Below, in pieces: positions 3,454 to 16,851 of a stretch of DNA of 36,959 bases. A program made the position numbers and the translations under genes. This DNA comes from Patescibacteria group bacterium. Lineage in GTDB: Archaea > Thermoproteota > Bathyarchaeia > TCS64. Within the stretch, counting starts at the first letter, position 1. Each line of letters starts with the position of its first letter. The notes under the pieces are model-generated. The model made no database searches. It was given only the letters and a program-made list of their open reading frames with translations, and was not told the DNA's origin. The stretch is taken from positions 1 to 36,959 of the forward strand of contig DATLAV010000205.1 of NCBI GenBank assembly GCA_035527235.1. The letters are read 5' to 3'.

Positions 3454-3531
3454 GGGTCTTCGTGGCAAATTTGAGTTAAGGATATAATATACTGTTCGGT
3501 GTTTGTGTCCAGTGCTGCGCGCGCAGTATAA

Positions 3532-3559
3532 TGGAGCCCCGGGTGGGATTTGAACCCAG
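3532..3559 (-). other. Orphan tRNA 3' fragment (T-arm, 3' acceptor strand, discriminator, CCA). No matching 5' half is nearby.
   Basis: The minus strand reads CTGGG-TTCAAAT-CCCAC-CCGGGGC-T-CCA. It matches the 3' end of the intact tRNA-Thr at 3723-3749 over roughly 24 of 26 nt. No GCCCCGG 5' acceptor strand occurs between 3560 and 3722. Confidence 0.6.
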
Positions 3560-3672: not shown

Positions 3673-3722
3673 CCCCTTTTACCTCCATTATGATAGAGGG
3701 GGGAGGGGGTCACATAAAATAG

Positions 3723-3795
3723 AGCCCCGGGCGGGATTTGAACCCGCGGCCAACAACTTACGAGGCTGCCGCTCTGGCCTCTGAGCTACCGGGGC
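3723..3795 (-). tRNA. tRNA-Thr (anticodon CGU), 73 nt, CCA not encoded
   Basis: The reverse complement folds by hand as GCCCCGG TA GCTC AGAGGCCA GAGC G GCAGC CTCGTAA GTTGT TGGCC GCGGG TTCAAAT CCCGC CCGGGGC T. Confidence 0.9.
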
Positions 3796-5351: not shown

Positions 5352-6362
5352 ATGGACCATGATGAGACCATGCCAAAGACGGTGGGAGAAATAGGGGAGA
5401 GGGGCCTCATAGAGCTGATGCTCCGCCACATCACCCCGATGCCCAACATGCCGATACCCTTCTGGGACGACGTGATGGCGGTCAGCCTCGGCGACGGGAG
5501 GGCCGCGGTGATGAACACCGACATGCTCGTCTGGAGCACCGACATCCCCCCGGGCATGAGCCACTTCCAGGCCGCCAGAAAGGCGGTGGTCATGAACTTC
5601 AGCGACCTGGGGGCGAAGGGCGTCCAGCCCCAAGCGTTCCTCTCCAGCCTCGGCATACCCAGGGACGTCAGAGTGGACGACGTCGAAGAACTGGCCAAAG
5701 GCTTCGAGGCCGGGGCACGGGAGTACGGCGGATACGTCATAGGAGGGGACACAAACGAGGCCCCCGACATCATCATCAGCGGAGTAGCGTTCGGCGTCGG
5801 CGAAGAGAACAGACTCATGAAGAGGAAGGGCACGACGCCAGGGGACGTCCTCGCCGCCACCGGGAGGTTCGGCGATACTGCCGCCGCATTCAAGATCCTC
5901 CTAGAGGGCGTCGACGCACCGGACGCGCTCAGGGAAAAACTGCTGGCATCCGTCTACACCCCAAACGCAAGGGTGAGGGAGGGCATCGCCCTCGGGGAGT
6001 CCGGCGCGGTCACAGCCTCTATAGACTCGAGCGACGGCCTCGCCGTCAGCCTCTACGACCTCTCCCGGAGCAGCGGCGTCGGCTTCAAGCTCCACACACT
6101 GCCCATCTCAGCCATGGCCGAGGAGTTCGCTGGCATCCACGACATGGACCCCGGGAAGCTGGCCCTCTACGGCGGCGAGGAGTACGAACTCGTCTTCACC
6201 GTGAAGCCCTCAGAGATGGATATGGCGAGGGAGGCCCTAAGAACAGTGGGTTGCGACCTCTTAGAGTTGGGTGTGGCCACGTCTACGAGGAGGATGGTGT
6301 TGGTGGAGGATGGCGTGGAGACCCTCATCAAGAAGGGGGGCTGGGAGCACTTCACGGGTTAA
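5352..6362 (+). CDS. thiL: Thiamine-monophosphate kinase (AIR synthase-related fold)
   Basis: Matching segments are GEIGERGLIE, DDVMAV..GDG.AAVMNTDMLVWSTDIP, AARKAVVMNFSDLGAKG and YGGYVIGGDTNEAPD. The start is ATG 5352 (alternative 5370). The upstream part of ORF 5133..6362 overlaps the CoA-transferase. Confidence 0.8.
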   Translation: MDHDETMPKTVGEIGERGLIELMLRHITPMPNMPIPFWDDVMAVSLGDGRAAVMNTDMLVWSTDIPPGMSHFQAARKAVVMNFSDLGAKGVQPQAFLSSLGIPRDVRVDDVEELAKGFEAGAREYGGYVIGGDTNEAPDIIISGVAFGVGEENRLMKRKGTTPGDVLAATGRFGDTAAAFKILLEGVDAPDALREKLLASVYTPNARVREGIALGESGAVTASIDSSDGLAVSLYDLSRSSGVGFKLHTLPISAMAEEFAGIHDMDPGKLALYGGEEYELVFTVKPSEMDMAREALRTVGCDLLELGVATSTRRMVLVEDGVETLIKKGGWEHFTG

Positions 6363-6544
6363 TGAAGAAAAGATGAAAAAGGTCCTCTAAGTGGGATAAA
6401 ACTAGGCCAGAAGACGCGATTAAAAGATATTTTAATACCATTTTTCATAAATTTCAGTTAATCCAGCCCGTCTACCTGAGGGGATCGCAATAAAGCTCTT
6501 ATTTCCCTTGGACATCTTTACTCTCATACAAGGGTCGAGACGTT

Positions 6545-9500
6545 TTGGACAAAGCTCAATCAAAGGTACTACGCAGGATCGACGAATGGAAGCTCAAGCT
6601 CATCGACCTGAGCAGGCGAAACCGCCTCGTCAACTTCAGGCCCACCAGGAGCTCCAACACCCAGTTCGACGAGCCCGGGATGAACGCCGTCTTCGAGAGG
6701 CTCGTCACCGAGAACAAGTGGTGGGAGATCTGGATGCCCCCAGCGGAAGGCGAGAGGGCGACGCGCCCCCGGAAGACCCAGGTGGTCCCATCGACGCAGG
6801 AGCGCAGCCAGCTGGAGAGGATCCTGAGGAACCTCGCCCGCCGGTCGGCCTCAGAGTACAGGGAGAGGGGGATCAGGGTACTCTACGTGACCTTTGGAAT
6901 GCTTAGGTGGGTCGACTCGGGCACCAGCGAGCAGCTCATGTCCCCCATCGCGCTGACCCCGGTGGAGCTCACCCGTAAGACGACCAGGGACCCCTACAGG
7001 ATACAGATACCGGCCGTCGAGGACGAAGTCATACTGAACCCCGCCCTCAAGCTGAAGCTCCAGTACGACCACAACATCGAGCTGCCGCCCCTCCCAGACT
7101 TCGAGGAGAGAACACTGAGCGACTACCTAGACACGGTCCAGGAGGCGGTGGAGGGCACCGGCTGGTACGTTGAACCCACGGTCCAGCTCGGCCTCTTCTC
7201 CTTCTACAAGCTGGTCATGTACCACGACCTTGAGGAGAACGCCAACATCATCGCGGAGCACCCCCTCATCAAGGCCCTCGCCGGCGTCGCCCAGCCCCCC
7301 ACGGCTGACGGCCTCCTGCCCACAGAGGGGGAGCTAGACGGCATCGTAGACCCTAAGGGCACATACCAGGTCCTCGACGCCGACAGCAGCCAGCAGCTCT
7401 GCATCCAGTACGCCCTCGGGGGGCAGAGCTTCGTGATGCACGGCCCCCCGGGCACCGGGAAGAGCCAGACTATCGCCAACATGATCTCCGAGTTCATCGC
7501 CGCCGGGAAGAGCGTCCTCTTCGTCAGCGAGAAGATGGCCGCCCTCGAGGTCGTCTACAGTCGCCTCAAGGCGAAGAACCTAGACGACTTCTGCCTCGAG
7601 CTCCACAGCCACAAGGCGAACAAGAGGGAGGTCGTCGCAGAGCTGAAGAGGTCCATGGACGAGCACCTGAGTCTAAGGGGGGGCATCACCGACGAGGAGC
7701 TAAGCAGGCTGGCGTCACGCCGGGACCAGCTCAACGCCTACGTCGAGGCCCTCCACATCAGGAGACAGCCCATGGAGATGAGCGCCTACGAGCTCTTCGG
7801 CAGGCTCGCGCGCCTCGAGGAGGCCCCCTTCCTCCCCAGCGGTTACCCCGCGTTCAACACCCTGAACCAGGCGAGGCTCTTCGAGCTCGAGGAGAAGATG
7901 AGGAGGCTCACCAACGCCTGGGCCGTCGTCGAGGAGGGGCAGAGGTTTCCCTGGAGGGGGTGCAGGGAGGAAAGGTTCACCCCCGAGACACGCTCAAGCT
8001 GGATGGCCCTCCTGGATGGAGCCATCTCCACCATCGAGGGGCTCAAGGAGGCCACGACCAGGTTCACGGAGACCCTGGGGCTGGAGGCCCCCAAGACCAC
8101 CGCAGAGTACGAGCGCCTCCAGAGGCTGGCGGAGCTCATCACGGCGACGCCGAGGCCCCCCATGAACTGGTTCGAGGACGTCGACCTCGATGGCGTCAAG
8201 GACAGGACAAGGGACCTCAGAAAGGAGTGGGAGGCCTACTGGAACGAGCGGAGGGCGTTGGAGAAGAGCTACGACAGCAGGTTCCTCGTCCTCCCGCCGG
8301 GCACCGCCGACCGCATAGAGGGGGAGTGGAGCTCACTGAAGGAGGTCCTTAAGCCCGCCTCGAAGGGAGACGGCGATCTCCTGAAGCAGATGACGGAGCT
8401 CAACGAGTACGCCACCAACCTCCGGGACGGGATGCTCAAATGGAAGAAGGACGCCGACGCCACTGCTGAGTTCCTGGGATTGAAGACGGACGTCGAGACT
8501 CCAGAGAGGGCGATGCAGCTCTCCCAACTCGCCGACCTCTGCGAGGGGGAGACCAAGCCCGAGAGGGCGTGGCTCGACATGAGCAGACTCCAGGAGACGA
8601 GGGCGCTGCTCGAGAGCCTCAGGGAGCACTACAGCGGGAGCGAGGAGCTCAGGGGCAGGCTCGACGTCTACACGGAGGAGCTCCTCACCCTCGACCTGGA
8701 CCGTCTCATCGGATGGTACGAGGGCTCCGGCAAATCCTTCCTCAGGTTCCTTAACCCCAGCCACTACAGCATCCAGGGAACCGTCTCCAGGGTCAGCAGG
8801 TCAGGCAGCGTGCCCGAGACGATACTCGACGACCTGAAGACCGCCAAGGAGCTCGTCCAGCTCCAGAGAAAGCTCGCCGAAGGCCAGGAGGACGCAAAAA
8901 AGGCCCTGGGAAGCTACTACACCGGCGACAGGCCCGACTTCGAGGCCGCAGAGAAGGCCCTGGAGACCGCCGAGACGGCCATCAAGATCGCAGGGAGAGC
9001 CAGGGCACCCAAGGCCTTGAGGGACAACCTTGCAGCCGGCACCAAGCCCGGGAAGGACCTCCTCGAGGTAGGCCACAGGCTAAGGGACTCCCTCGCCGCC
9101 TGGAGGAAGAGGACCCGGGAGGTGGGAGGTCTGGTGCCCCCGAGGAGGATTCCGACCTCAGGGAAGTCACTGGAGAAGAGCACGTTCAAGGAGATCGATG
9201 AGTGGGCCTACGAGGTCGGCGAGAGGCTTGGGGCCCTGAGCAGGACATCAGCAGAGGCCCTGGCGACCCGGAAGACAGAGCATCCACCCCACATGGGGGC
9301 CCTCATCCTGGACCTTAGGAGGGTCGAGGGGCTCCAGAGGTTCGAGGACCACGTCGAGGGGCTCAAGGAGGAGATGCAGGGCTCCTTCGGCCACCTCTAC
9401 GCCGGGCTCCTCACCGACTGGGACGCCGTCGCCGGGGCGGTGGACTGGACCAAGAGGGTGATCCGGGCCCTCTCCAGCGGCGTGCCGGACTCCCTGAAGA

Positions 9501-12085
9501 GGCGTGCCTCGGACGGGGGCGGCGCCATGCCCGCGAACCCCGGCGTCAGTGAGAGGCTCGAGAAGCTTGGGGGATACGTAGAGGAGCTGAACGGCAGGTT
9601 CGAGGAGCCCATCTGGAAGGGCCGACGGGAGGCGATGGCCCCTGAGAAGATCATGGATAGGATGAGGGCGCTGAGGTCCCGCATTGACGACCTCCAGACC
9701 TGGGTCGACTACAACACCATCACAGCGGAGCTCTCCAGCGACGGGCTAGGGGCACTCCTTGAGCAGATGATCCAAAAAAAGATCGGCCATGACGTGCTCC
9801 TAGATGTCTTCCACAAGTCGATCTACCAGGGGTTCCTCGACATGGTCTTCAGCGAGGACATCAACCTCAGCGACTTCAGGGGGAAGGAGCACGAGCAGCT
9901 GATCGACGACTTCCAGGAGCTGGACCGCAAGTTCATCAGGCTCTCCGCGCAGAGGGTCATCGAGGCCGCCAACGAGCACAAGCCCCAGGGCGTCTTCGTT
10001 GTGGCGCCGGACTCGGAGATCACGATACTGAGGCGGGAGGCCACCAAGAAGAGCCGCCATATGCCCCTGAGGGAGCTCTTCGAGAGGATCCCCAACCTGA
10101 TCTGGCGCCTCAAGCCCTGCCTCATGATGAGCCCCATCAGCGTCAGCCAGTTCCTGAAGCCTGGAGCCATCCACTTCGACCTCGTCGTCTTCGACGAGGC
10201 GTCACAGATCTACACTGAGGACGCCGTGGGCTCCATCTACAGGGGGGACCGGCTCGTGGTGGCCGGGGACCCGAAGCAGCTTCCGCCGACGCCGTTCTTC
10301 CAGTACTCCATGGACGAGGACTTCGACTGGGACGCCGCGAACTACGAGTTCGACGTCTTCGACAGCGTCCTAGACGAGTGCATGTCCATCGGGCTCCCGG
10401 TGAAGATGCTCAGGTGGCACTACAGGAGCAGGCACGACTCCCTCATCAGCTTCAGCAACGACAGGTACTACGACGGCCGTCTCGTCCTCTTCCCGGCGTC
10501 GAGGATGGGGGCGGAGGACCTGGGCCTCGAGTTCGTCTACGTGGAGGACGGCGTCTACCAGAGGGGGCGGGCCAGGAACAACCCGAGGGAGGCCGAGGTG
10601 GTGGCCGACCTCGTCTTCGACCACTTCCAGAGGCATCCGGACAAGACCCTTGGGGTCGTCACCTTCAGCCTGAGCCAGATGAACACGGTGCAGGACGCAG
10701 TGGAGAGGCGGCTCCGTGACCGCCCCAAGTTCGAGCAGCACTTTAAGGAGGACAGGCTCAACGGCTTCTTCGTGAAGAACTTGGAGAACGTCCAGGGCGA
10801 CGAGAGGGACGTCATGATCTTCAGCGTCGGCTACGGGCGCGACGAGGACGGGCGCATCACCATGAACTTCGGCCCCCTGAACAAGCAGGGGGGCGAGAGG
10901 AGGCTCAACGTCGCGATCACCAGGGCCCGGGAGAAGGTGGTGCTCGTCAGCTCCATCAAGTACGACGACATCAAGCTCACCTCCACCCAGGCCGAGGGGG
11001 TCCACAGCCTCCACTACTACCTCCGCTACGCCGAGAGGAGGCCGAAGAACCTGGAGGAGACGAGGGGTGACGCTGGCTTCGCCTCACCCCTGGAGATGGA
11101 CGTCGCCGAGGAGGTGGAGGGCCTCGGCTACGAGGTGGTGCCCAGCGTGGGCTCCAGCTCCTTCAGGGTCGACCTCGGCGTCGTGGACCCCAGGAACCCG
11201 GGGAGGTTCATCCTCGGCATCATGTGCGACGGTGACACCTACAGGGAGGCCAGCATGGCGAGGGACAGGGACCGGCTGAGGAACCAGGTGCTGGAGAACC
11301 TGGGGTGGAGGATCCACCGGATCTGGTCCCCTGACTGGGTTCAGAGGAGGTCCACCGAGCTGAAGAGGCTGAGGAACGCCCTCAAGGACGCAGAGAGAGG
11401 ACCGAGGACCATGGAGGTCCTCGACGAGACGTCCGCGCCCACCCCCGTTAGGACCGTGAAGAGGGGAAGGGTCGAGGAGGCGAGGGGAAACGACCTCCCG
11501 GAGGTGGAGCCCTACAGGTTCGCTAGGTTGAGACCCGACCACCTCTTCAGTAGGTACTCGGCCGAGTTCAAGGAGAGGTACATGGCCCAGTACCACGCAG
11601 AGGTGAAGAGGCTTCTCCCCCAGCTCGTGGCGGTGGAGGGACCCATCCACAGGGATCTCGCATACAGGCGGCTGAACACCGCCTTCAGGCTGAGCCGGGC
11701 CACCCAGAGCTTCGCGGACGCCTTCTTCGAGGAGATCGACTGGCTGGTGACCAGGGGCGAGCTGAGGTGCGTCGACGGCTTCCTCTGGCCGGTGGAGGAC
11801 GTCCCCCTGACGGTGCGCGTCCCCGTCGAGGGAGTTGAGGAGTCCTTCAGGGCCGTGGAGCACATCCCGCCCGTGGAGATCGGCAACGCCGTCGTCCTTG
11901 TCGTGGGTCACTCCCTCGGGATCAGCGGGGAGTCACTGCTCAACGAGACCGCCAAGCTCCTGGGGTTCAAGAGGATGACCGAGAGCGTCAGCCAGACAGT
12001 GACCGGCATCATAGGGAAGATGAACCGGGACGGCGTGCTCAAGCTCCAGGAGGGGCTCTACACACTTTCTGGTAAGATGAATTAG
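6545..12085 (+). CDS. Giant SF1 (Upf1/DNA2-like) helicase fused to a Vsr/DUF559-like endonuclease. Domain order: DUF4011-like N-terminus, AAA_11/AAA_12 helicase, MTES_1575-like REase fold, DUF3320-like C-terminus.
   Basis: The N-terminus carries LIDLSRRNRLVNFR, YVTFGMLRW and LGLFSFYKLVMYHDL. Helicase motifs are motif I GPPGTGKS (aa 300-307, nt 7442-7465), motif II DEAS (aa 1217-1220, nt 10193), GDPKQLPP, LRWHYRSR, VQGDERD and NVAITRAR. The nuclease module spans aa ~1511-1600 (SPLEMDV, FRVDLGV, IMCDGDTY, ARDRDRLR, GWRIHRIWSPDW). The tail is DUF3320-like (EGPIHRDLAYRRL...). The only in-frame start is a TTG. Confidence 0.85.
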   Translation: MDKAQSKVLRRIDEWKLKLIDLSRRNRLVNFRPTRSSNTQFDEPGMNAVFERLVTENKWWEIWMPPAEGERATRPRKTQVVPSTQERSQLERILRNLARRSASEYRERGIRVLYVTFGMLRWVDSGTSEQLMSPIALTPVELTRKTTRDPYRIQIPAVEDEVILNPALKLKLQYDHNIELPPLPDFEERTLSDYLDTVQEAVEGTGWYVEPTVQLGLFSFYKLVMYHDLEENANIIAEHPLIKALAGVAQPPTADGLLPTEGELDGIVDPKGTYQVLDADSSQQLCIQYALGGQSFVMHGPPGTGKSQTIANMISEFIAAGKSVLFVSEKMAALEVVYSRLKAKNLDDFCLELHSHKANKREVVAELKRSMDEHLSLRGGITDEELSRLASRRDQLNAYVEALHIRRQPMEMSAYELFGRLARLEEAPFLPSGYPAFNTLNQARLFELEEKMRRLTNAWAVVEEGQRFPWRGCREERFTPETRSSWMALLDGAISTIEGLKEATTRFTETLGLEAPKTTAEYERLQRLAELITATPRPPMNWFEDVDLDGVKDRTRDLRKEWEAYWNERRALEKSYDSRFLVLPPGTADRIEGEWSSLKEVLKPASKGDGDLLKQMTELNEYATNLRDGMLKWKKDADATAEFLGLKTDVETPERAMQLSQLADLCEGETKPERAWLDMSRLQETRALLESLREHYSGSEELRGRLDVYTEELLTLDLDRLIGWYEGSGKSFLRFLNPSHYSIQGTVSRVSRSGSVPETILDDLKTAKELVQLQRKLAEGQEDAKKALGSYYTGDRPDFEAAEKALETAETAIKIAGRARAPKALRDNLAAGTKPGKDLLEVGHRLRDSLAAWRKRTREVGGLVPPRRIPTSGKSLEKSTFKEIDEWAYEVGERLGALSRTSAEALATRKTEHPPHMGALILDLRRVEGLQRFEDHVEGLKEEMQGSFGHLYAGLLTDWDAVAGAVDWTKRVIRALSSGVPDSLKRRASDGGGAMPANPGVSERLEKLGGYVEELNGRFEEPIWKGRREAMAPEKIMDRMRALRSRIDDLQTWVDYNTITAELSSDGLGALLEQMIQKKIGHDVLLDVFHKSIYQGFLDMVFSEDINLSDFRGKEHEQLIDDFQELDRKFIRLSAQRVIEAANEHKPQGVFVVAPDSEITILRREATKKSRHMPLRELFERIPNLIWRLKPCLMMSPISVSQFLKPGAIHFDLVVFDEASQIYTEDAVGSIYRGDRLVVAGDPKQLPPTPFFQYSMDEDFDWDAANYEFDVFDSVLDECMSIGLPVKMLRWHYRSRHDSLISFSNDRYYDGRLVLFPASRMGAEDLGLEFVYVEDGVYQRGRARNNPREAEVVADLVFDHFQRHPDKTLGVVTFSLSQMNTVQDAVERRLRDRPKFEQHFKEDRLNGFFVKNLENVQGDERDVMIFSVGYGRDEDGRITMNFGPLNKQGGERRLNVAITRAREKVVLVSSIKYDDIKLTSTQAEGVHSLHYYLRYAERRPKNLEETRGDAGFASPLEMDVAEEVEGLGYEVVPSVGSSSFRVDLGVVDPRNPGRFILGIMCDGDTYREASMARDRDRLRNQVLENLGWRIHRIWSPDWVQRRSTELKRLRNALKDAERGPRTMEVLDETSAPTPVRTVKRGRVEEARGNDLPEVEPYRFARLRPDHLFSRYSAEFKERYMAQYHAEVKRLLPQLVAVEGPIHRDLAYRRLNTAFRLSRATQSFADAFFEEIDWLVTRGELRCVDGFLWPVEDVPLTVRVPVEGVEESFRAVEHIPPVEIGNAVVLVVGHSLGISGESLLNETAKLLGFKRMTESVSQTVTGIIGKMNRDGVLKLQEGLYTLSGKMN

Positions 12086-12090
12086 GTGAG

Positions 12091-12167
12091 TGGCGCCGCC
12101 GATCGGATTCGAACCGATGACCAACTGGTTAACAGCCAGACGCTCTACCGAGCTGAGCCACGGCGGC
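12091..12167 (-). tRNA. tRNA-Asn (anticodon GUU), CCA encoded
   Basis: The reverse complement is GCCGCCG TG GCTC AGCTCGGTA GAGC G TCTGG CTGTTAA CCAGT TGGTC ATCGG TTCGAAT CCGAT CGGCGGC G CCA. Its 3' end lies 5 nt from the helicase stop, in convergent orientation. Confidence 0.9.
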
Positions 12168-12840: not shown

Positions 12841-13353
12841 GTGCAAACACAACTATGTGAGTTCTGTCTTAGGAGCGGGATGCTCTGCTCGAAATGCCAG
12901 GAGAAGGTCAGGAAAGGCGAAGTAAACGATCTCTACATGAAGGTAGCGCAGTATCTATTGGACGTCGAGAACAAATATCCGGCTCTACAGAAGGCCCGAC
13001 TGGACAAGACCTTCGAGACCGGCGGATTTCTAGTGCTCGTGGTCGGTCGAGGGGACCGCAACAAGTTCATGACCGACGGCGGGAAGCTGACGAGGGATGT
13101 CGGCGACAGCTTCGGCCGTAGAGTACTGGTGATCGAGGATGGGGTGAACGACAGGGGTTTCCTGGAGGACCTCTTCTCGAGCCAGCACATCGTCACGATA
13201 AACATAATCTGGCTCCCCGACGGGACCACGGAGACCCGGATCGTGCTTCAGGGAAGGGGCGCAAGGCGCCTCAGCAAGAAGCGGATCAAGGCGCTCACGG
13301 ATATAGCGAAGGAGGTCCGTAAAATGGACCTCAGGGTCGAGTACGCCTACTGA
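12841..13353 (+). CDS. Conserved archaeal protein with an N-terminal zinc ribbon and a KH-like RNA-binding region. The exact family was not resolved.
   Basis: The zinc ribbon is CEFC-x8-CSKC followed by GEVNDL. A later segment, VVGRGD...GGK...GRRVLVIE, resembles a KH GxxG region. GTG start. Confidence 0.5.
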   Translation: MQTQLCEFCLRSGMLCSKCQEKVRKGEVNDLYMKVAQYLLDVENKYPALQKARLDKTFETGGFLVLVVGRGDRNKFMTDGGKLTRDVGDSFGRRVLVIEDGVNDRGFLEDLFSSQHIVTINIIWLPDGTTETRIVLQGRGARRLSKKRIKALTDIAKEVRKMDLRVEYAY

Positions 13354-15064: not shown

Positions 15065-15718
15065 CCTCCAGGCCGCCGCTATCACGGGATTCTTGTCTAG
15101 GTACTTCTCCCTCAGCCCCTCTTCGACGCGGTTGAATGGGCAGCTGAAGTTGACGCAGCGGGGGCAGTAGAAGAGGCTCAGGAGTGTGAAGCCGGAGACG
15201 ACGGCGAGGAAGGTGGCTGCGACCAGCCCGGCGAATGCGATCTCGGCGGTGCCCCCTAAGCCTCCGGCGTAGACCGCCTGTAGACCCGTCAGCTCCGTCA
15301 GAAGGGGCAGCCCCCCGAAGACCGCGAAGCTCACCACCACAATAGCCCTCTCCCACCTGCCCGCGGGCGAAGGCTGATATCCCCAGAGCTTCGGCAGCCC
15401 GTGGTTGGCGTAGCATCGGAGGGTGAAACCCGTCCTCGAGTAGAACGGGCAGTGCCGGCAGAGGATCCTGCTCTCAAGGAGCGTGAAGAAGACGACTATG
15501 AAGGCGATATAGAGCGCCTGGAGGAGCCAGCTGCCGGTCACTCGCCCTGCGATGTACATTCCCGGCACCGCGGTGGCGGCGAAGGGGATGACGATGAGGA
15601 GGAATCCCCGGAGGTCCTCCCGCCTCCACCGGCAGTTGAGCTTCCCCCGCAGCTCGCAGCCCTCGCACTCGGCCTCGTCCCGCCAGGTGCAGAGGCAAAA
15701 GGGGTTGACCGAGCCCAT
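15047..15718 (-). CDS. Cysteine-rich polytopic membrane protein, function unknown
   Basis: The 223-aa product has an N-terminal CLC...CEGC...C cluster, then CRHCPFY and CPRCVNFSCPF motifs flanking about 5 hydrophobic segments. Its 3' end overlaps the 3' end of pth2 by 18 nt (convergent). Confidence 0.6.
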   Translation of the reverse strand: MGSVNPFCLCTWRDEAECEGCELRGKLNCRWRREDLRGFLLIVIPFAATAVPGMYIAGRVTGSWLLQALYIAFIVVFFTLLESRILCRHCPFYSRTGFTLRCYANHGLPKLWGYQPSPAGRWERAIVVVSFAVFGGLPLLTELTGLQAVYAGGLGGTAEIAFAGLVAATFLAVVSGFTLLSLFYCPRCVNFSCPFNRVEEGLREKYLDKNPVIAAAWRSLNQR

Positions 15719-15819
15719 GTCGCAGGCACCCTCTCGAGCACTACTCTAACTTTTGAACTAATAAGCCTAAGAGAGATACAAGAACTGCACGGAGTGTCAG
15801 AGCACTGATTCTCAAGGGA

Positions 15820-16851
15820 ATGAGATGGGGGGAGACCGGGGACGGCGACCCCGTCCACCTGTACACACTCGCGAACGAGCGAGGGATCGAGGCGCGTATC
15901 TCGGACTACGGGGGCATCGTGACGTCGTTGATGGCGCCCGACAGGGATGGACGCCTCGTAGATGTCGTCCTCGGATACGACTCCCTGGGGGAGTACGTCG
16001 AGGACGCCACCTATTTCGGCTGCCTCATCGGCCGGTACGCCAACCGCATAGCGTTGGGCCACTTCACACTCGACGGCGTCGAGCACTCGGTGACCGTCAA
16101 CAACGGCAGGAACCACCTCCACGGTGGCGCCAAGGGGTTTAACAAGGTCCTTTGGGAGGCCAAGGAGCAGAGAGGGGAAAACTCCGTCGGCGTTCGGCTC
16201 ACGTACCTGAGCCCGGACGGCGATGAGGGGTACCCCGGCAACCTGCTCGCTCAGGTCACGTACACCCTCACGGAGGGGAACGAGCTGATTCTGGACTACG
16301 CGGCCTCCACCGACGCCGTCACGATCGTCAACCTGACCAACCATTCCTACTTCAACCTGGCGGGCCACGGTAGCGGTGACGTCCTGGATCATATGCTGAC
16401 TTTGAACGCCGATCGCTTCACCCCCGTCGACGGGGAGCTCATACCCACCGGGGAGCTCAGGGACGTCGAGGGGACGCCGATGGACTTCAGGAGGCCGACC
16501 GCCATCGGGGAGAGAATAGACCACCCGCAGCTCGTGTTGGTGGGGGGCATCGACCACAACTTCGCGCTGAGCAGGGGCTCGGATGGGATGGCGTTCGCGG
16601 CCAGGGTCCATGAGCCCCTCTCGGGGAGGACCCTTGAGGTCTCCACGACGGAGCCGGGGATCCAGATCTACACGGGCAACTTCCTCCAGGAGGGGAAAAC
16701 GGGGAAAGGAGGGAGGACGTACGGACCCCGGGGGGCCATCTGCCTGGAGACCCAGCACTTCCCTGACTCACTCAACAAGATGAACTTTCCCTCGACCGTC
16801 CTCTGGCCTGGCGAAACGTACAGGCAGAGGACTGTCTACAGGTTCACTTAG
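15820..16851 (+). CDS. galM: Aldose 1-epimerase (galactose mutarotase)
   Basis: Matching segments are GGIVTSL..PDRDG...DVVLGYDSL.EY, YFGCLIGRYANRI, NHLHGG..GF and ICLETQHFPDS. Confidence 0.88.
   Translation: MRWGETGDGDPVHLYTLANERGIEARISDYGGIVTSLMAPDRDGRLVDVVLGYDSLGEYVEDATYFGCLIGRYANRIALGHFTLDGVEHSVTVNNGRNHLHGGAKGFNKVLWEAKEQRGENSVGVRLTYLSPDGDEGYPGNLLAQVTYTLTEGNELILDYAASTDAVTIVNLTNHSYFNLAGHGSGDVLDHMLTLNADRFTPVDGELIPTGELRDVEGTPMDFRRPTAIGERIDHPQLVLVGGIDHNFALSRGSDGMAFAARVHEPLSGRTLEVSTTEPGIQIYTGNFLQEGKTGKGGRTYGPRGAICLETQHFPDSLNKMNFPSTVLWPGETYRQRTVYRFT

What the first reader, a model, noticed from the sequence alone, without database searches (positions are those of the whole stretch)
6545..12085. 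Stand-alone 1846-aa helicase-nuclease (DUF4011 / SF1 helicase / Vsr-like endonuclease / DUF3320) next to a tRNA: an Hhe-like defence candidate in an archaeon
One giant ORF is wedged between the housekeeping gene thiL and tRNA-Asn, with its stop 5 nt from the tRNA. The translation shows four modules in order.
- A DUF4011-like N-terminus.
- A complete Upf1/DNA2-type SF1 helicase motif set.
- A PD-(D/E)xK Vsr/DUF559 (MTES_1575-like) module (IMCDGDTY...ARDRDRLR...GWRIHRIWSPDW).
- A DUF3320-like tail.
From memory, this is the architecture of the single-gene Hhe (helicase plus Vsr endonuclease) anti-phage system of Gao et al. 2020, described in bacteria. The mechanism is unknown and I am not aware of any archaeal characterisation. 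It has no partner genes, uses a rare TTG start and sits by a tRNA, which fits an accessory or defence role better than a replication or repair core gene.
Basis: partly seen in the sequence, partly recalled or inferred. Interest (0 to 1): 0.75.

Follow-up and report, generated by a model that had tools for sequence, protein, structure and literature searches.

The report
Archaeal ProA-like helicase-nuclease defence candidate
A single 1,846-residue helicase-plus-nuclease gene in a Bathyarchaeia genome belongs to a known family of candidate anti-virus proteins (ProA/PDC-S37 type, a cousin of Hhe); it is a fairly ordinary member, except that its nuclease active site is rewired and close relatives have repeatedly lost it from one fixed chromosomal spot.

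Summary
ORF 6545-12085 (+, TTG start, 1846 aa) ends 5 nt before tRNA-Asn(GTT). In order it carries DUF4011, a split Upf1/Dna2-type SF1B helicase, a Vsr-like MTES_1575 nuclease and a DUF3320 winged-helix tail.

The interpretation needs correcting.
- **Family.** The best profiles are PADLOC PDC-S37 (1449 bits) and NCBIfam "anti-phage ProA" (1380 bits, cut-off 1500). Hhe scores lower (882 bits, cut-off 2000). A genuine Hhe lacks the DUF3320 tail.
- **Origin.** The organism is a Bathyarchaeia archaeon, and full-length homologues are common in that class.
- **Accessory status.** In related contigs the thiL to tRNA-Asn interval holds the helicase in 14, lacks it in 38 and is undetermined in 32. At least 4-5 gain or loss events are needed.
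- **Not a mobile island.** It co-diverges with thiL (r = 0.87). There is no att repeat, no compositional anomaly, no defence or mobile neighbour, and no viral copy.
- **Nuclease.** The canonical GIECDGxxYH motif reads GIMCDGDTYR. The Glu and His are lost and an acidic residue appears four positions later, throughout this clade and only there.

Defence is plausible but untested here. This is a new member of a known kind, of modest interest.

The parts
5370..6362 (+). Upstream core gene of the AIR-synthase-related family (thiL-like). It marks the left border of the variable site.
   Evidence: Pfam AIRS. A 330-aa gene call with AIRS/AIRS_C exists in the 99%-identical contig L001 and in L002/L003. 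It was used as the anchor for the synteny scans.
6363..6544 (+). AT-rich 182-nt intergenic region upstream of the helicase gene. It presumably holds the promoter; this is an inference.
   Evidence: Sequence read. The region is not alignable with occupied or empty sites of relatives.
6545..12085 (+). Whole ORF of 1846 aa with a TTG start: a ProA/PDC-S37-type helicase-nuclease.
   Evidence: P0001 is 99% identical and has the same length.
6596..7060 (+). DUF4011 N-terminal domain (aa 18-172). The alpha/beta module extends to about aa 245. Its function is unknown.
   Evidence: Pfam PF13195, E = 3.6e-27. The AF2 model shows mixed alpha/beta structure. Neither a PDB sequence profile search nor a fold search found a match.
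7370..7714 (+). N-terminal half of helicase domain RecA1: DADSSQQ, Walker A GPPGTGKS (aa 300-307), motif Ia and the CLELHSxKANK element.
   Evidence: Pfam AAA_11 and AAA_30. The columns are invariant in alignment A2.
7715..9994 (+). All-helical insertion of about 760 aa (aa 391-1150) that splits RecA1. It sits where Upf1-like helicases carry their accessory 1B/1C domains.
   Evidence: AF2 predicts helices across aa 384-1131 with pLDDT about 80-92. It is the least conserved long region of the protein. No fold match is significant; the best are MukB/JetC coiled coils at E = 2e-3 with low probability.
9995..10360 (+). C-terminal half of RecA1: motif II DEASQ (aa 1217-1221) and motif III GDPKQLPP (aa 1241-1248).
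   Evidence: Invariant columns. A second AAA_11 stretch is reported.
10361..10969 (+). Helicase domain RecA2: motifs IV (WHYRS), V (QGDERD) and VI (GGERRLNVAITRAR).
   Evidence: Pfam AAA_12, aa 1274-1470. Foldseek matches Aquarius, Sen1, Upf1, Dna2, IGHMBP2 and SETX.
11075..11389 (+). Vsr-like PD-(D/E)xK nuclease module (MTES_1575, aa 1511-1615). D1543, D1562, Y1566, RDRDRLR and GWRIHRIW are retained. The canonical Glu is Met1560, the canonical His is Arg1567, and there is a clade-specific Asp1564.
   Evidence: Pfam PF18741, E = 4.5e-31. RAP-domain PDB hits at E = 4.6e-6. The predicted order of secondary-structure elements is compatible with a nuclease core.
11492..12082 (+). C-terminal tail (aa about 1650-1846) containing DUF3320, predicted to be tandem winged-helix domains.
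   Evidence: Pfam DUF3320. AF2 pLDDT is about 87-95. Foldseek matches SelB WH2-WH4 (2uwm_A, 1lva) at probability 0.99. DUF3320 was described as a wHTH in PMC3710099. The tail resembles the ProA and haloarchaeal tails but not the Hhe tail.
12091..12167 (-). tRNA-Asn(GTT), convergent with the ORF. It marks the right border of the variable site, and its 3' CCA end abuts the helicase stop codon.
   Evidence: ARAGORN and Rfam. The same helicase-tRNA-Asn adjacency is seen in L002, L003, L005 and L063.

Best explanation
The ORF encodes a single-polypeptide, ATP-driven helicase-nuclease of the ProA/PDC-S37 type. This is the sister family of the Hhe anti-phage protein. The gene sits in the chromosome of a Bathyarchaeia archaeon.

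**Anatomy (shown).** The modules, in order, are:
- a DUF4011 N-terminal module;
- a Upf1/Dna2-like SF1B motor whose first RecA domain is split by an all-helical insertion of about 760 aa;
- a Vsr-like endonuclease module;
- a tandem winged-helix tail.

**Mechanism (inferred).** The motor loads on single-stranded nucleic acid of an invading virus or plasmid. It translocates 5'->3' at the expense of ATP. The winged-helix tail and the helical insertion position or gate the Vsr-like nuclease, which cuts the invader.

**Nuclease in this clade (inferred).** The usual metal-binding Glu has been replaced by a hydrophobic residue. An Asp or Glu four residues later, D1564 here, probably takes over its role.

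**Evolutionary behaviour (shown).** The gene is dispensable. It is an old, vertically inherited resident abutting the 3' end of tRNA-Asn, and close relatives have repeatedly lost it. It is not a recently integrated island.
For: **Family**
- PADLOC PDC-S37 scores 1449 bits (E = 0), against 587 for Hhe.
- NCBIfam antiphage_ProA scores 1380 bits, against 882 for Hhe.
- A Ralstonia homologue with 34% identity and the same architecture passes the ProA cut-off at 1522 bits.

**Motor**
- All SF1 motifs are invariant.
- Fold matches are to Aquarius, Sen1, Upf1, Dna2 and IGHMBP2.

**Nuclease**
- MTES_1575 matches at E = 4.5e-31.
- D1543, D1562, Y1566 and the RDRDRLR and GWRIHRIW elements are conserved.
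- Among 112 close homologues, 59 have a hydrophobic residue at the Glu position together with Asp or Glu at +4, and 49 keep the Glu with no acid at +4.
- The swapped form occurs only in this clade among 147 representatives of the wider family.
- In Hhe, a nuclease-site mutant (E1731A) loses anti-phage activity (bioRxiv 10.1101/2022.06.16.496414).

**Tail**
- DUF3320 is detected, and the tail matches SelB-like winged helices.

**Accessory but vertical**
- 14 related loci are occupied, 38 lack the helicase and 32 are undetermined.
- At least 5 presence/absence changes are needed, 4-7 across bootstraps.
- Pairwise identities of thiL and the helicase N-terminus correlate at r = 0.87.
- Codon usage and GC match the neighbours.
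- There is no att repeat and no viral copy.

**Context elsewhere.** Family members on bacterial and haloarchaeal plasmids sit beside IS elements, DUF262 proteins or a UvrD-type helicase with a PD-(D/E)XK nuclease. This is typical defence-island company.
Against: - No experiment bears on this protein or on any archaeal member.
- I could not find the publication behind the label 'anti-phage ProA', or any text on PDC-S37.
- The protein falls below the curated cut-offs of both named families.
- In Bathyarchaeia the gene usually sits among housekeeping genes, with no recognised defence neighbours.
- A DUF4011 gene is a core gene in P. aeruginosa (PMC10250203), so family membership does not guarantee a defence role.
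- The canonical Glu and His of the nuclease are missing, so the nuclease may be impaired.
- The proposed takeover by D1564 rests on one evolutionary event and on a model region of modest confidence. pLDDT is about 58 around the turn.
- Absence at this locus does not prove absence from the genome.
Confidence: 0.55

Rival explanations
1. It is a dispensable chromosomal genome-maintenance enzyme. A Dna2-like helicase-nuclease would process DNA ends, flaps or stalled forks of the host's own chromosome rather than foreign DNA.
For: - The gene shows vertical co-divergence with thiL.
- Local synteny is stable and lineage-specific in several Bathyarchaeia clades: thiL-HEL-tRNA-Asn, and DUF1638-HEL-HAD.
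- The neighbours are housekeeping genes with no PADLOC hits.
- Dna2 is among the fold and sequence matches.
- A DUF4011 gene is core in P. aeruginosa.
Against: - Close relatives lost the gene repeatedly at the same locus.
- The best full-length profile matches are two families labelled anti-phage.
- Plasmid-borne relatives sit next to IS elements and other defence-type genes.
- The Dna2 similarity is limited to the generic SF1B core.
Confidence: 0.25
2. It acts on RNA rather than DNA. A Upf1/Sen1-like RNA or R-loop helicase would be coupled to a RAP-like endoribonuclease or RNA-binding module, targeting viral transcripts or R-loops.
For: - The top structural matches are RNA helicases: Aquarius, Sen1, Upf1, IGHMBP2 and SETX.
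- The only PDB sequence matches of the nuclease module are RAP-domain proteins, at E = 4.6e-6.
- The Mokosh helicase models give weak hits.
Against: - Vsr and DUF559/MTES_1575 relatives are DNA endonucleases (own knowledge, and PMC3710099).
- SF1B motors such as Dna2 also work on DNA.
- The winged-helix tail is more typical of DNA binding, although SelB winged helices bind RNA.
- Nothing in the sequence discriminates between the two substrates.
Confidence: 0.1
3. The nuclease module is catalytically dead in this clade. The protein would work only as a translocase or remodeller, or as a sensor that recruits other factors.
For: - The canonical Glu is hydrophobic (M1560) and the canonical His is not conserved (R1567) across the whole clade.
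- Both residues are present in 118 of 147 representatives of the wider family.
- In Hhe, the E1731A mutant, probably the same Glu, loses defence activity.
Against: - The module is otherwise strongly conserved, at 48-76% identity within Bathyarchaeia.
- D1543 and D1562 are retained.
- An acidic residue at +4 is kept in 59 of about 61 clade members, while that position is small and variable elsewhere.
- E. coli Vsr itself has Phe at the Glu position and is active (own knowledge of the Vsr sequence).
Confidence: 0.1

Closest known systems
ProA (NCBIfam NF058533 'anti-phage protein ProA') / PADLOC candidate PDC-S37
   Same: - It is the best full-length profile match in both libraries.
- The module order is identical: DUF4011, split SF1B helicase, MTES_1575 nuclease, then a DUF3320 tail of about 270 aa.
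- It is about 34% identical to a Ralstonia member that passes the ProA cut-off.
- Both are single genes with no conserved partner.
   Different: - It scores 1380 bits, below the 1500 cut-off. All Bathyarchaeia homologues tested fall below it too, at 1271-1429 bits.
- The nuclease motif is GIMCDGDTYR instead of GIECDGAAYH.
- The host is an archaeon, and the gene is chromosomal, vertically inherited and set among housekeeping genes.
- I could not locate the experimental basis of the ProA name.
Hhe (Gao et al. 2020; NCBIfam NF042953; PADLOC PDLC02194)
   Same: - Both are single-gene proteins with DUF4011, an SF1 helicase and a Vsr-like MTES_1575 nuclease.
- They are 34-39% identical over the helicase-nuclease core.
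- Hhe activity against lambda, T3, T7 and PhiV-1, and its loss in a nuclease-site mutant, are as reported.
   Different: - It scores 882 bits against a cut-off of 2000.
- Klebsiella Hhe has no DUF3320, only 172 aa after the RDRDR motif, and a tail unrelated to the window's.
- Hhe has a longer N-terminal region.
- Hhe keeps the canonical Glu and His.
Upf1-like SF1B helicases (Upf1, Sen1/SETX, IGHMBP2, Aquarius, Dna2)
   Same: The motif set and the RecA2 fold match. Accessory domains are inserted in RecA1.
   Different: - The insertion here is an all-helical block of about 760 aa with no significant fold match.
- The protein has additional DUF4011, nuclease and winged-helix modules.
- Translocation polarity and substrate were not tested.
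Vsr / DUF559 / RAP-type PD-(D/E)xK modules
   Same: - Pfam MTES_1575 is hit, and RAP-domain proteins match by PDB sequence search.
- The RDRxR...L...GW..h.hW helix-strand element resembles E. coli Vsr (own knowledge of the Vsr sequence).
- As in Vsr, the residue at the 'Glu' position is hydrophobic.
   Different: - It lacks the Vsr His64 and His69 equivalents, which here are D1562 and R1567.
- It lacks the Vsr zinc site.
- It is fused to a large motor protein.

Membership tests
Hhe (NF042953 / PDLC02194) | Whole-protein score at or above the curated NCBIfam equivalog cut-off of 2000 bits | tested here: not met
   882.1 bits. Five Bathyarchaeia homologues score 816-923 bits.
Hhe (NF042953 / PDLC02194) | DUF4011 N-terminus, SF1 helicase and Vsr-like (MTES_1575) nuclease in a single polypeptide | tested here: met
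   Pfam hits are above their gathering scores. The same three families are found in Klebsiella Hhe.
Hhe (NF042953 / PDLC02194) | Canonical nuclease motif GIECDGxxYH. The Glu is probably the residue whose mutation (E1731A) abolishes Hhe defence. | tested here: not met
   The window has GIMCDGDTYR (M1560, R1567), whereas Klebsiella Hhe has GIECDGAAYH with E1727. Equating E1731 of E. coli Hhe with this Glu is an inference from position.
Hhe (NF042953 / PDLC02194) | Short C-terminus after the nuclease, with no DUF3320 | tested here: not met
   The window has a 274-aa tail with DUF3320. Hhe has 172 aa, no DUF3320 hit and no similarity to the window tail.
ProA (NF058533) / PDC-S37 (PDLC05009) | Whole-protein score at or above the curated NCBIfam equivalog cut-off of 1500 bits | tested here: not met
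   1380.2 bits, which is the top hit. A Ralstonia homologue passes with 1522 bits.
ProA (NF058533) / PDC-S37 (PDLC05009) | Best match to the PADLOC PDC-S37 model | tested here: met
   1449.4 bits, E = 0, in three stretches, the best covering aa 900-1838. No cut-off is shown by the tool.
ProA (NF058533) / PDC-S37 (PDLC05009) | Architecture of DUF4011, split SF1 helicase, MTES_1575 and a DUF3320 tail | tested here: met
   for the window and for Ralstonia ProA. The tails are similar at E = 2e-14.
ProA (NF058533) / PDC-S37 (PDLC05009) | Single-gene system with no obligatory partner | tested here: met
   The neighbours are CoA-transferase, thiL, tRNA-Asn, Alba and AspRS, with no PADLOC hits. Neighbours differ between lineages and in Ralstonia and Raoultella.
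ProA (NF058533) / PDC-S37 (PDLC05009) | Protection against phage or virus infection | not testable with these tools
   This needs expression and challenge experiments. The source publication for ProA was not found.
Upf1-like SF1B helicases | Motifs I, Ia, II, III, IV, V and VI intact, with a RecA2 fold | tested here: met
   The columns are invariant. Foldseek matches Aquarius, Sen1, Upf1, Dna2 and IGHMBP2 at E = 1e-6 to 1e-4.
Upf1-like SF1B helicases | 5'->3' translocation on single-stranded nucleic acid | not testable with these tools
   This is inferred only from family membership.
Vsr-like PD-(D/E)xK nucleases (MTES_1575/DUF559/RAP) | Complete catalytic residue set | tested here: inconclusive
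   D1543 and D1562 are kept, while the Glu and His are replaced. An acidic residue at +4 is conserved in the clade. No coordinates were available to measure distances.
tRNA-integrated genomic island | Integrase, a direct repeat of the tRNA 3' end at the distal border, and deviant composition | tested here: not met
   There is no repeat of the tRNA-Asn 3' end upstream. None of the neighbouring genes scanned with Pfam is an integrase; the flanking genes are thiL, CoA-transferase, Alba and AspRS. GC, GC3 and codon usage resemble the neighbours. Only variable occupancy is met.

The most novel reading that the evidence does not exclude
The Bathyarchaeia clade that includes this gene is a functional immune helicase-nuclease that has been vertically inherited for a long time next to tRNA-Asn. 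Its catalytic carboxylate has migrated from the canonical Glu of GIECDG to an Asp or Glu four residues downstream. If so, it would be the first archaeal model for the mechanistically unsolved Hhe/ProA family, and a natural active-site-migration variant of a Vsr-like nuclease.
Probability: 0.35. Interest if true: 0.45.

Novelty: new member of a known kind. Interest (0 to 1): 0.3.

Why it matters
Hhe/ProA-type helicase-nucleases form a large family. The nuclease-plus-tail query alone finds 1,524 clusters at 50% identity with E <= 1e-30. I found no mechanistic study of them in the searchable literature.

This locus adds three points:
- An archaeal, chromosomal branch behaves as a long-term resident that is repeatedly lost, rather than as mobile island cargo.
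- The DUF3320 tail separates the ProA type from the Hhe type. This corrects a common conflation.
- There is a clean, clade-wide rearrangement of the nuclease active site that mutagenesis could test.

None of this overturns current views. PADLOC would already flag the gene as a candidate.

Tried and rejected
1. **att-type repeats.** I looked for a copy of the tRNA-Asn 3' end upstream of the gene and found none.
2. **Viral carriage.** There was no match in IMG/VR.
3. **Literature.** Searches for PDC-S37, ProA and DUF3320 returned nothing relevant to ProA. Only indirect Hhe data were found.
4. **Fold of DUF4011 and the helical insertion.** Foldseek against the PDB gave nothing significant. A DUF4011 profile searched against PDB sequences gave nothing.
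5. **Deletion scars.** I aligned the intergenic DNA of empty and occupied sites. It was too diverged to be informative.
6. **An E. coli ProA with current PGAP annotation.** I searched E. coli genomes with a Raoultella plasmid homologue and found no match.
7. **The genome-contig scan with thiL.** It returned only two close relatives, and the rest were Dehalococcoidia at about 31% identity. Site occupancy therefore came mainly from the metagenome scan.
8. **Recent horizontal acquisition.** I rejected this because of co-divergence with thiL and the native composition of the gene.
9. **A 30-replicate bootstrap with Biopython distances.** It timed out, so I redid it with faster code.
10. **A 406-aa minus-strand ORF at 15538-16758.** It turned out to be a shadow of an intact aldose-epimerase-like ORF at 15820-16851 on the + strand.
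Full report
**Observation**

TTG is the only start codon upstream of the conserved N-terminal residues (W15, L19, D21, L22, R25, N26). It aligns with an in-frame ATG of a homologue (L003). A 99%-identical protein of the same length is on record (P0001).

tRNA-Asn(GTT) lies at 12091..12167 on the minus strand. It is convergent with the ORF, and its encoded CCA end is 5 nt after the TAG stop. Upstream are an AIRS-family (thiL-like) gene at 5370..6362 and a divergent CoA-transferase. Downstream are Alba, a conserved 170-aa protein, AspRS and PTH2. PADLOC finds nothing in ten neighbouring ORFs.

**Modules**

Pfam supports every module above its gathering score:

| Module | Residues | Support |
|---|---|---|
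| DUF4011 | 18-172 | E = 3.6e-27 |
| AAA_11 / AAA_12 | 280-345 and 1274-1470 | SF1 helicase |
| MTES_1575 | 1517-1613 | E = 4.5e-31 |
| DUF3320 | 1681-1721 | 31.4 bits, cut-off 25 |

In a 24-sequence alignment that includes bacterial and haloarchaeal members, all helicase motifs are invariant. They are GPPGTGKS, DEASQ, GDxKQLPP, WHYRS, QGDERD and GGERRLNVAITRAR.

The helicase is split. Walker A and motif Ia lie at aa 300-340, and motif II lies at aa 1217. AlphaFold2 models built with a 61-sequence alignment give these results:
- aa 384-1131 is an all-helical block with pLDDT about 80-92.
- RecA2 is well modelled, and the nuclease region shows the order of elements expected for a nuclease core (helix, three strands, helices, strand).
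- The C-terminal 200 residues are modelled confidently, with pLDDT about 90.

Foldseek against the PDB matches the motor to Aquarius, Sen1, Upf1, Dna2, IGHMBP2 and SETX. It matches the tail to the tandem winged helices of SelB. This agrees with the earlier description of DUF3320 as a wHTH and of MTES_1575 as a Vsr-fold REase (PMC3710099). DUF4011 and the helical insertion have no significant match by fold or by sequence profile.

**Which family**

The protein is not Hhe in the strict sense.

| Library | ProA / PDC-S37 | Hhe |
|---|---|---|
| PADLOC | PDC-S37: 1449 bits | 587 bits |
| NCBIfam | antiphage_ProA: 1380 bits, cut-off 1500 | 882 bits, cut-off 2000 |

Five other Bathyarchaeia homologues behave the same way. 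A Ralstonia megaplasmid homologue passes the ProA cut-off at 1522 bits.

A PGAP-annotated Klebsiella Hhe (1911 aa) differs in three respects:
- It has DUF4011, the helicase and MTES_1575, but no DUF3320.
- Only 172 residues follow the nuclease motif, and they are unrelated to the window's tail.
- Its N-terminus is longer.

The Ralstonia ProA has DUF3320 and a 270-residue tail similar to the window's (E = 2e-14). I could not find the paper behind the ProA name, or any text mentioning PDC-S37. The 'anti-phage' label for ProA is therefore taken from NCBIfam only.

For Hhe, a preprint summarises activity against lambda, T3, T7 and PhiV-1, and reports loss of activity in the nuclease-site mutant E1731A.

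**Organism and distribution**

The closest relatives, at 42-65% identity and full length, are overwhelmingly labelled Bathyarchaeota or Bathyarchaeia. The near-identical contig belongs to assembly GCA_964535885.1.

More distant full-length homologues, at 33-36% identity, occur on haloarchaeal plasmids, on the Ralstonia megaplasmid and on many other bacterial replicons. The nuclease-plus-tail region alone finds 1,524 clusters at 50% identity with E <= 1e-30.

**Accessory or core**

Using thiL as the anchor, I retrieved 2 close genome loci and 80 metagenome loci.

At 60-64% helicase identity the order is conserved: CoA-transferase, thiL, helicase, tRNA-Asn, Alba, hyp170, AspRS, PTH2. In equally related contigs thiL is followed directly by tRNA-Asn, with a gap of 24-168 nt. 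These are L009, L010, L039, L042, L043, L052 and L057.

Over 84 loci, 14 carry the helicase. In 38 the tRNA-Asn is reached with no helicase. In 32 the state is undetermined. Some of these loci come from the same populations and are not independent.

Two sister clades carry something else in the interval:
- an H+-pyrophosphatase;
- a 296-aa coiled-coil membrane protein.

L005, L063 and L069 show pyrophosphatase-helicase-tRNA-Asn or related combinations. The stable linkage is therefore between the helicase and the 3' end of tRNA-Asn.

On a thiL neighbour-joining tree, occupied and empty sites are interspersed within the window's clade. Fitch parsimony needs at least 5 changes, and 4-7 in 20 bootstrap resamples.

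**Not a recent insertion**

Several lines of evidence argue against recent acquisition:
- Pairwise identities of thiL and of the helicase N-terminus correlate at r = 0.87 across 14 loci, although the pairs are not independent.
- GC, GC3 and codon usage match the neighbours.
- There is no repeat of the tRNA 3' end.
- No viral contig carries the gene.
- More distant Bathyarchaeia homologues sit in other, mostly housekeeping, contexts. These show their own local synteny, for example DUF1638-helicase-HAD in two lineages.

My reading is an old chromosomal resident that was repeatedly deleted. An alternative, exchange between relatives by recombination in the conserved flanks, is not excluded.

**Nuclease active site**

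ProA (Ralstonia), Hhe (Klebsiella), the haloarchaeal homologue and the deeper Bathyarchaeia branch all have G-[IV]-E-[CF]-D-G-x-x-Y. In ProA, Hhe and the haloarchaeal protein a His follows. In the deeper Bathyarchaeia branch that position is variable.

The window reads G-I-M-C-D-G-D-T-Y-R.

| Sample | Pattern | Count |
|---|---|---|
| 112 close homologues | Hydrophobic at the Glu position, Asp/Glu at +4 | 59 |
| | Hydrophobic at the Glu position, Asn at +4 | 1 |
| | Glu kept, small non-acidic residue at +4 | 49 |
| | Fit neither pattern | 3 |
| 147 representatives of the wider family | Glu and His both present | 118 |
| | Swapped form (all from the window's clade) | 4 |

This is therefore one evolutionary event, followed by retention. 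The rest of the module stays strongly conserved (D1543, D1562, Y1566, RDRDRLR, GWRIHRIW).

From my own knowledge of the E. coli Vsr sequence, D1543 corresponds to Vsr D51, M1560 to F62, D1562 to H64 and R1567 to H69. A hydrophobic residue at the 'Glu' position is thus compatible with activity in Vsr, but the two Vsr histidines are absent here.

In the model, D1564 opens the short helix right after the DG turn. It is plausibly near the active site, but that stretch has only modest confidence and I had no coordinates to measure. I regard carboxylate migration as more likely than a dead nuclease, without proof.

**Mechanism**

Shown:
- the anatomy of the protein;
- the intact ATPase and helicase motifs;
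- the family relationships;
- dispensability.

Inferred:
- 5'->3' translocation on single-stranded nucleic acid, by analogy with Upf1, Dna2, Sen1 and IGHMBP2;
- DNA binding by the winged-helix tail;
- cleavage by the Vsr-like module;
- a target that is foreign rather than host nucleic acid.

The rivals are a dispensable genome-maintenance enzyme, an RNA-directed enzyme, and a nuclease-dead translocase.

**Verdict**

This is a correctly observed, stand-alone helicase-nuclease. It is a sub-threshold, archaeal member of the ProA/PDC-S37 family and a relative of Hhe, but not Hhe itself. It is accessory but anciently resident, and its nuclease site is rewired. Defence is the best-supported role but is untested. 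Novelty is that of a new member of a known kind, and interest is modest.

Noticed in passing
window 3527-3557 versus 3715-3745 (tRNA-Thr(CGT) at 3722-3795, minus strand): A 31-nt direct copy, 90% identical, of the 3' part of tRNA-Thr plus 7 flanking nt lies 188 bp beyond the tRNA's 3' end, at the start of the methyltransferase ORF. Only the T-arm and acceptor 3' part is duplicated. This looks like an att-type remnant of an old integration or excision at tRNA-Thr. One relative (L080) has two full tRNA-Thr(CGT) copies.
   Followed up: partly
Relatives L054, L058, L060, L062, L066, L067, L071, L073-L079, L089; L082-L109; L063: The thiL to tRNA-Asn interval is a rearrangement-prone spot in this lineage. 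One clade carries an H+-pyrophosphatase there. Another carries a 296-aa coiled-coil membrane protein. One contig carries a 794-aa peptidase-like gene together with the helicase.
   Followed up: partly
window 12841-13353 (+): A 170-aa ORF between Alba and AspRS has no Pfam or PADLOC match. It is 80-81% identical and syntenic in relatives whose thiL is only about 69% identical, so it is a conserved gene of unknown function.
   Followed up: no
L001 13940-14871, compared with window 15820-16851: The aldose-epimerase-like gene is one intact 343-aa ORF in the window. In the 99%-related contig L001 it is called as two pieces of 101 and 209 aa, which suggests a frameshift or an assembly error there.
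   Followed up: partly
L005 650-2360 and L121 1-9000: Two more distant helicase homologues sit next to small toxin-antitoxin-type genes (PIN, Polbeta/NTase with HEPN, RHH), or in a stretch rich in hypothetical genes with ParB_N and SHOCT domains. These are the only Bathyarchaeia contexts seen that hint at a variable or defence-like neighbourhood.
   Followed up: no
L116 (Halomontanus rarus plasmid) 542-20599: The haloarchaeal plasmid homologue is flanked by a 1597-aa DEAD/DEAH helicase, an ADP-ribosylglycohydrolase and a UvrD-helicase plus PD-(D/E)XK nuclease pair. This is a defence-island-like cluster on an archaeal plasmid.
   Followed up: no
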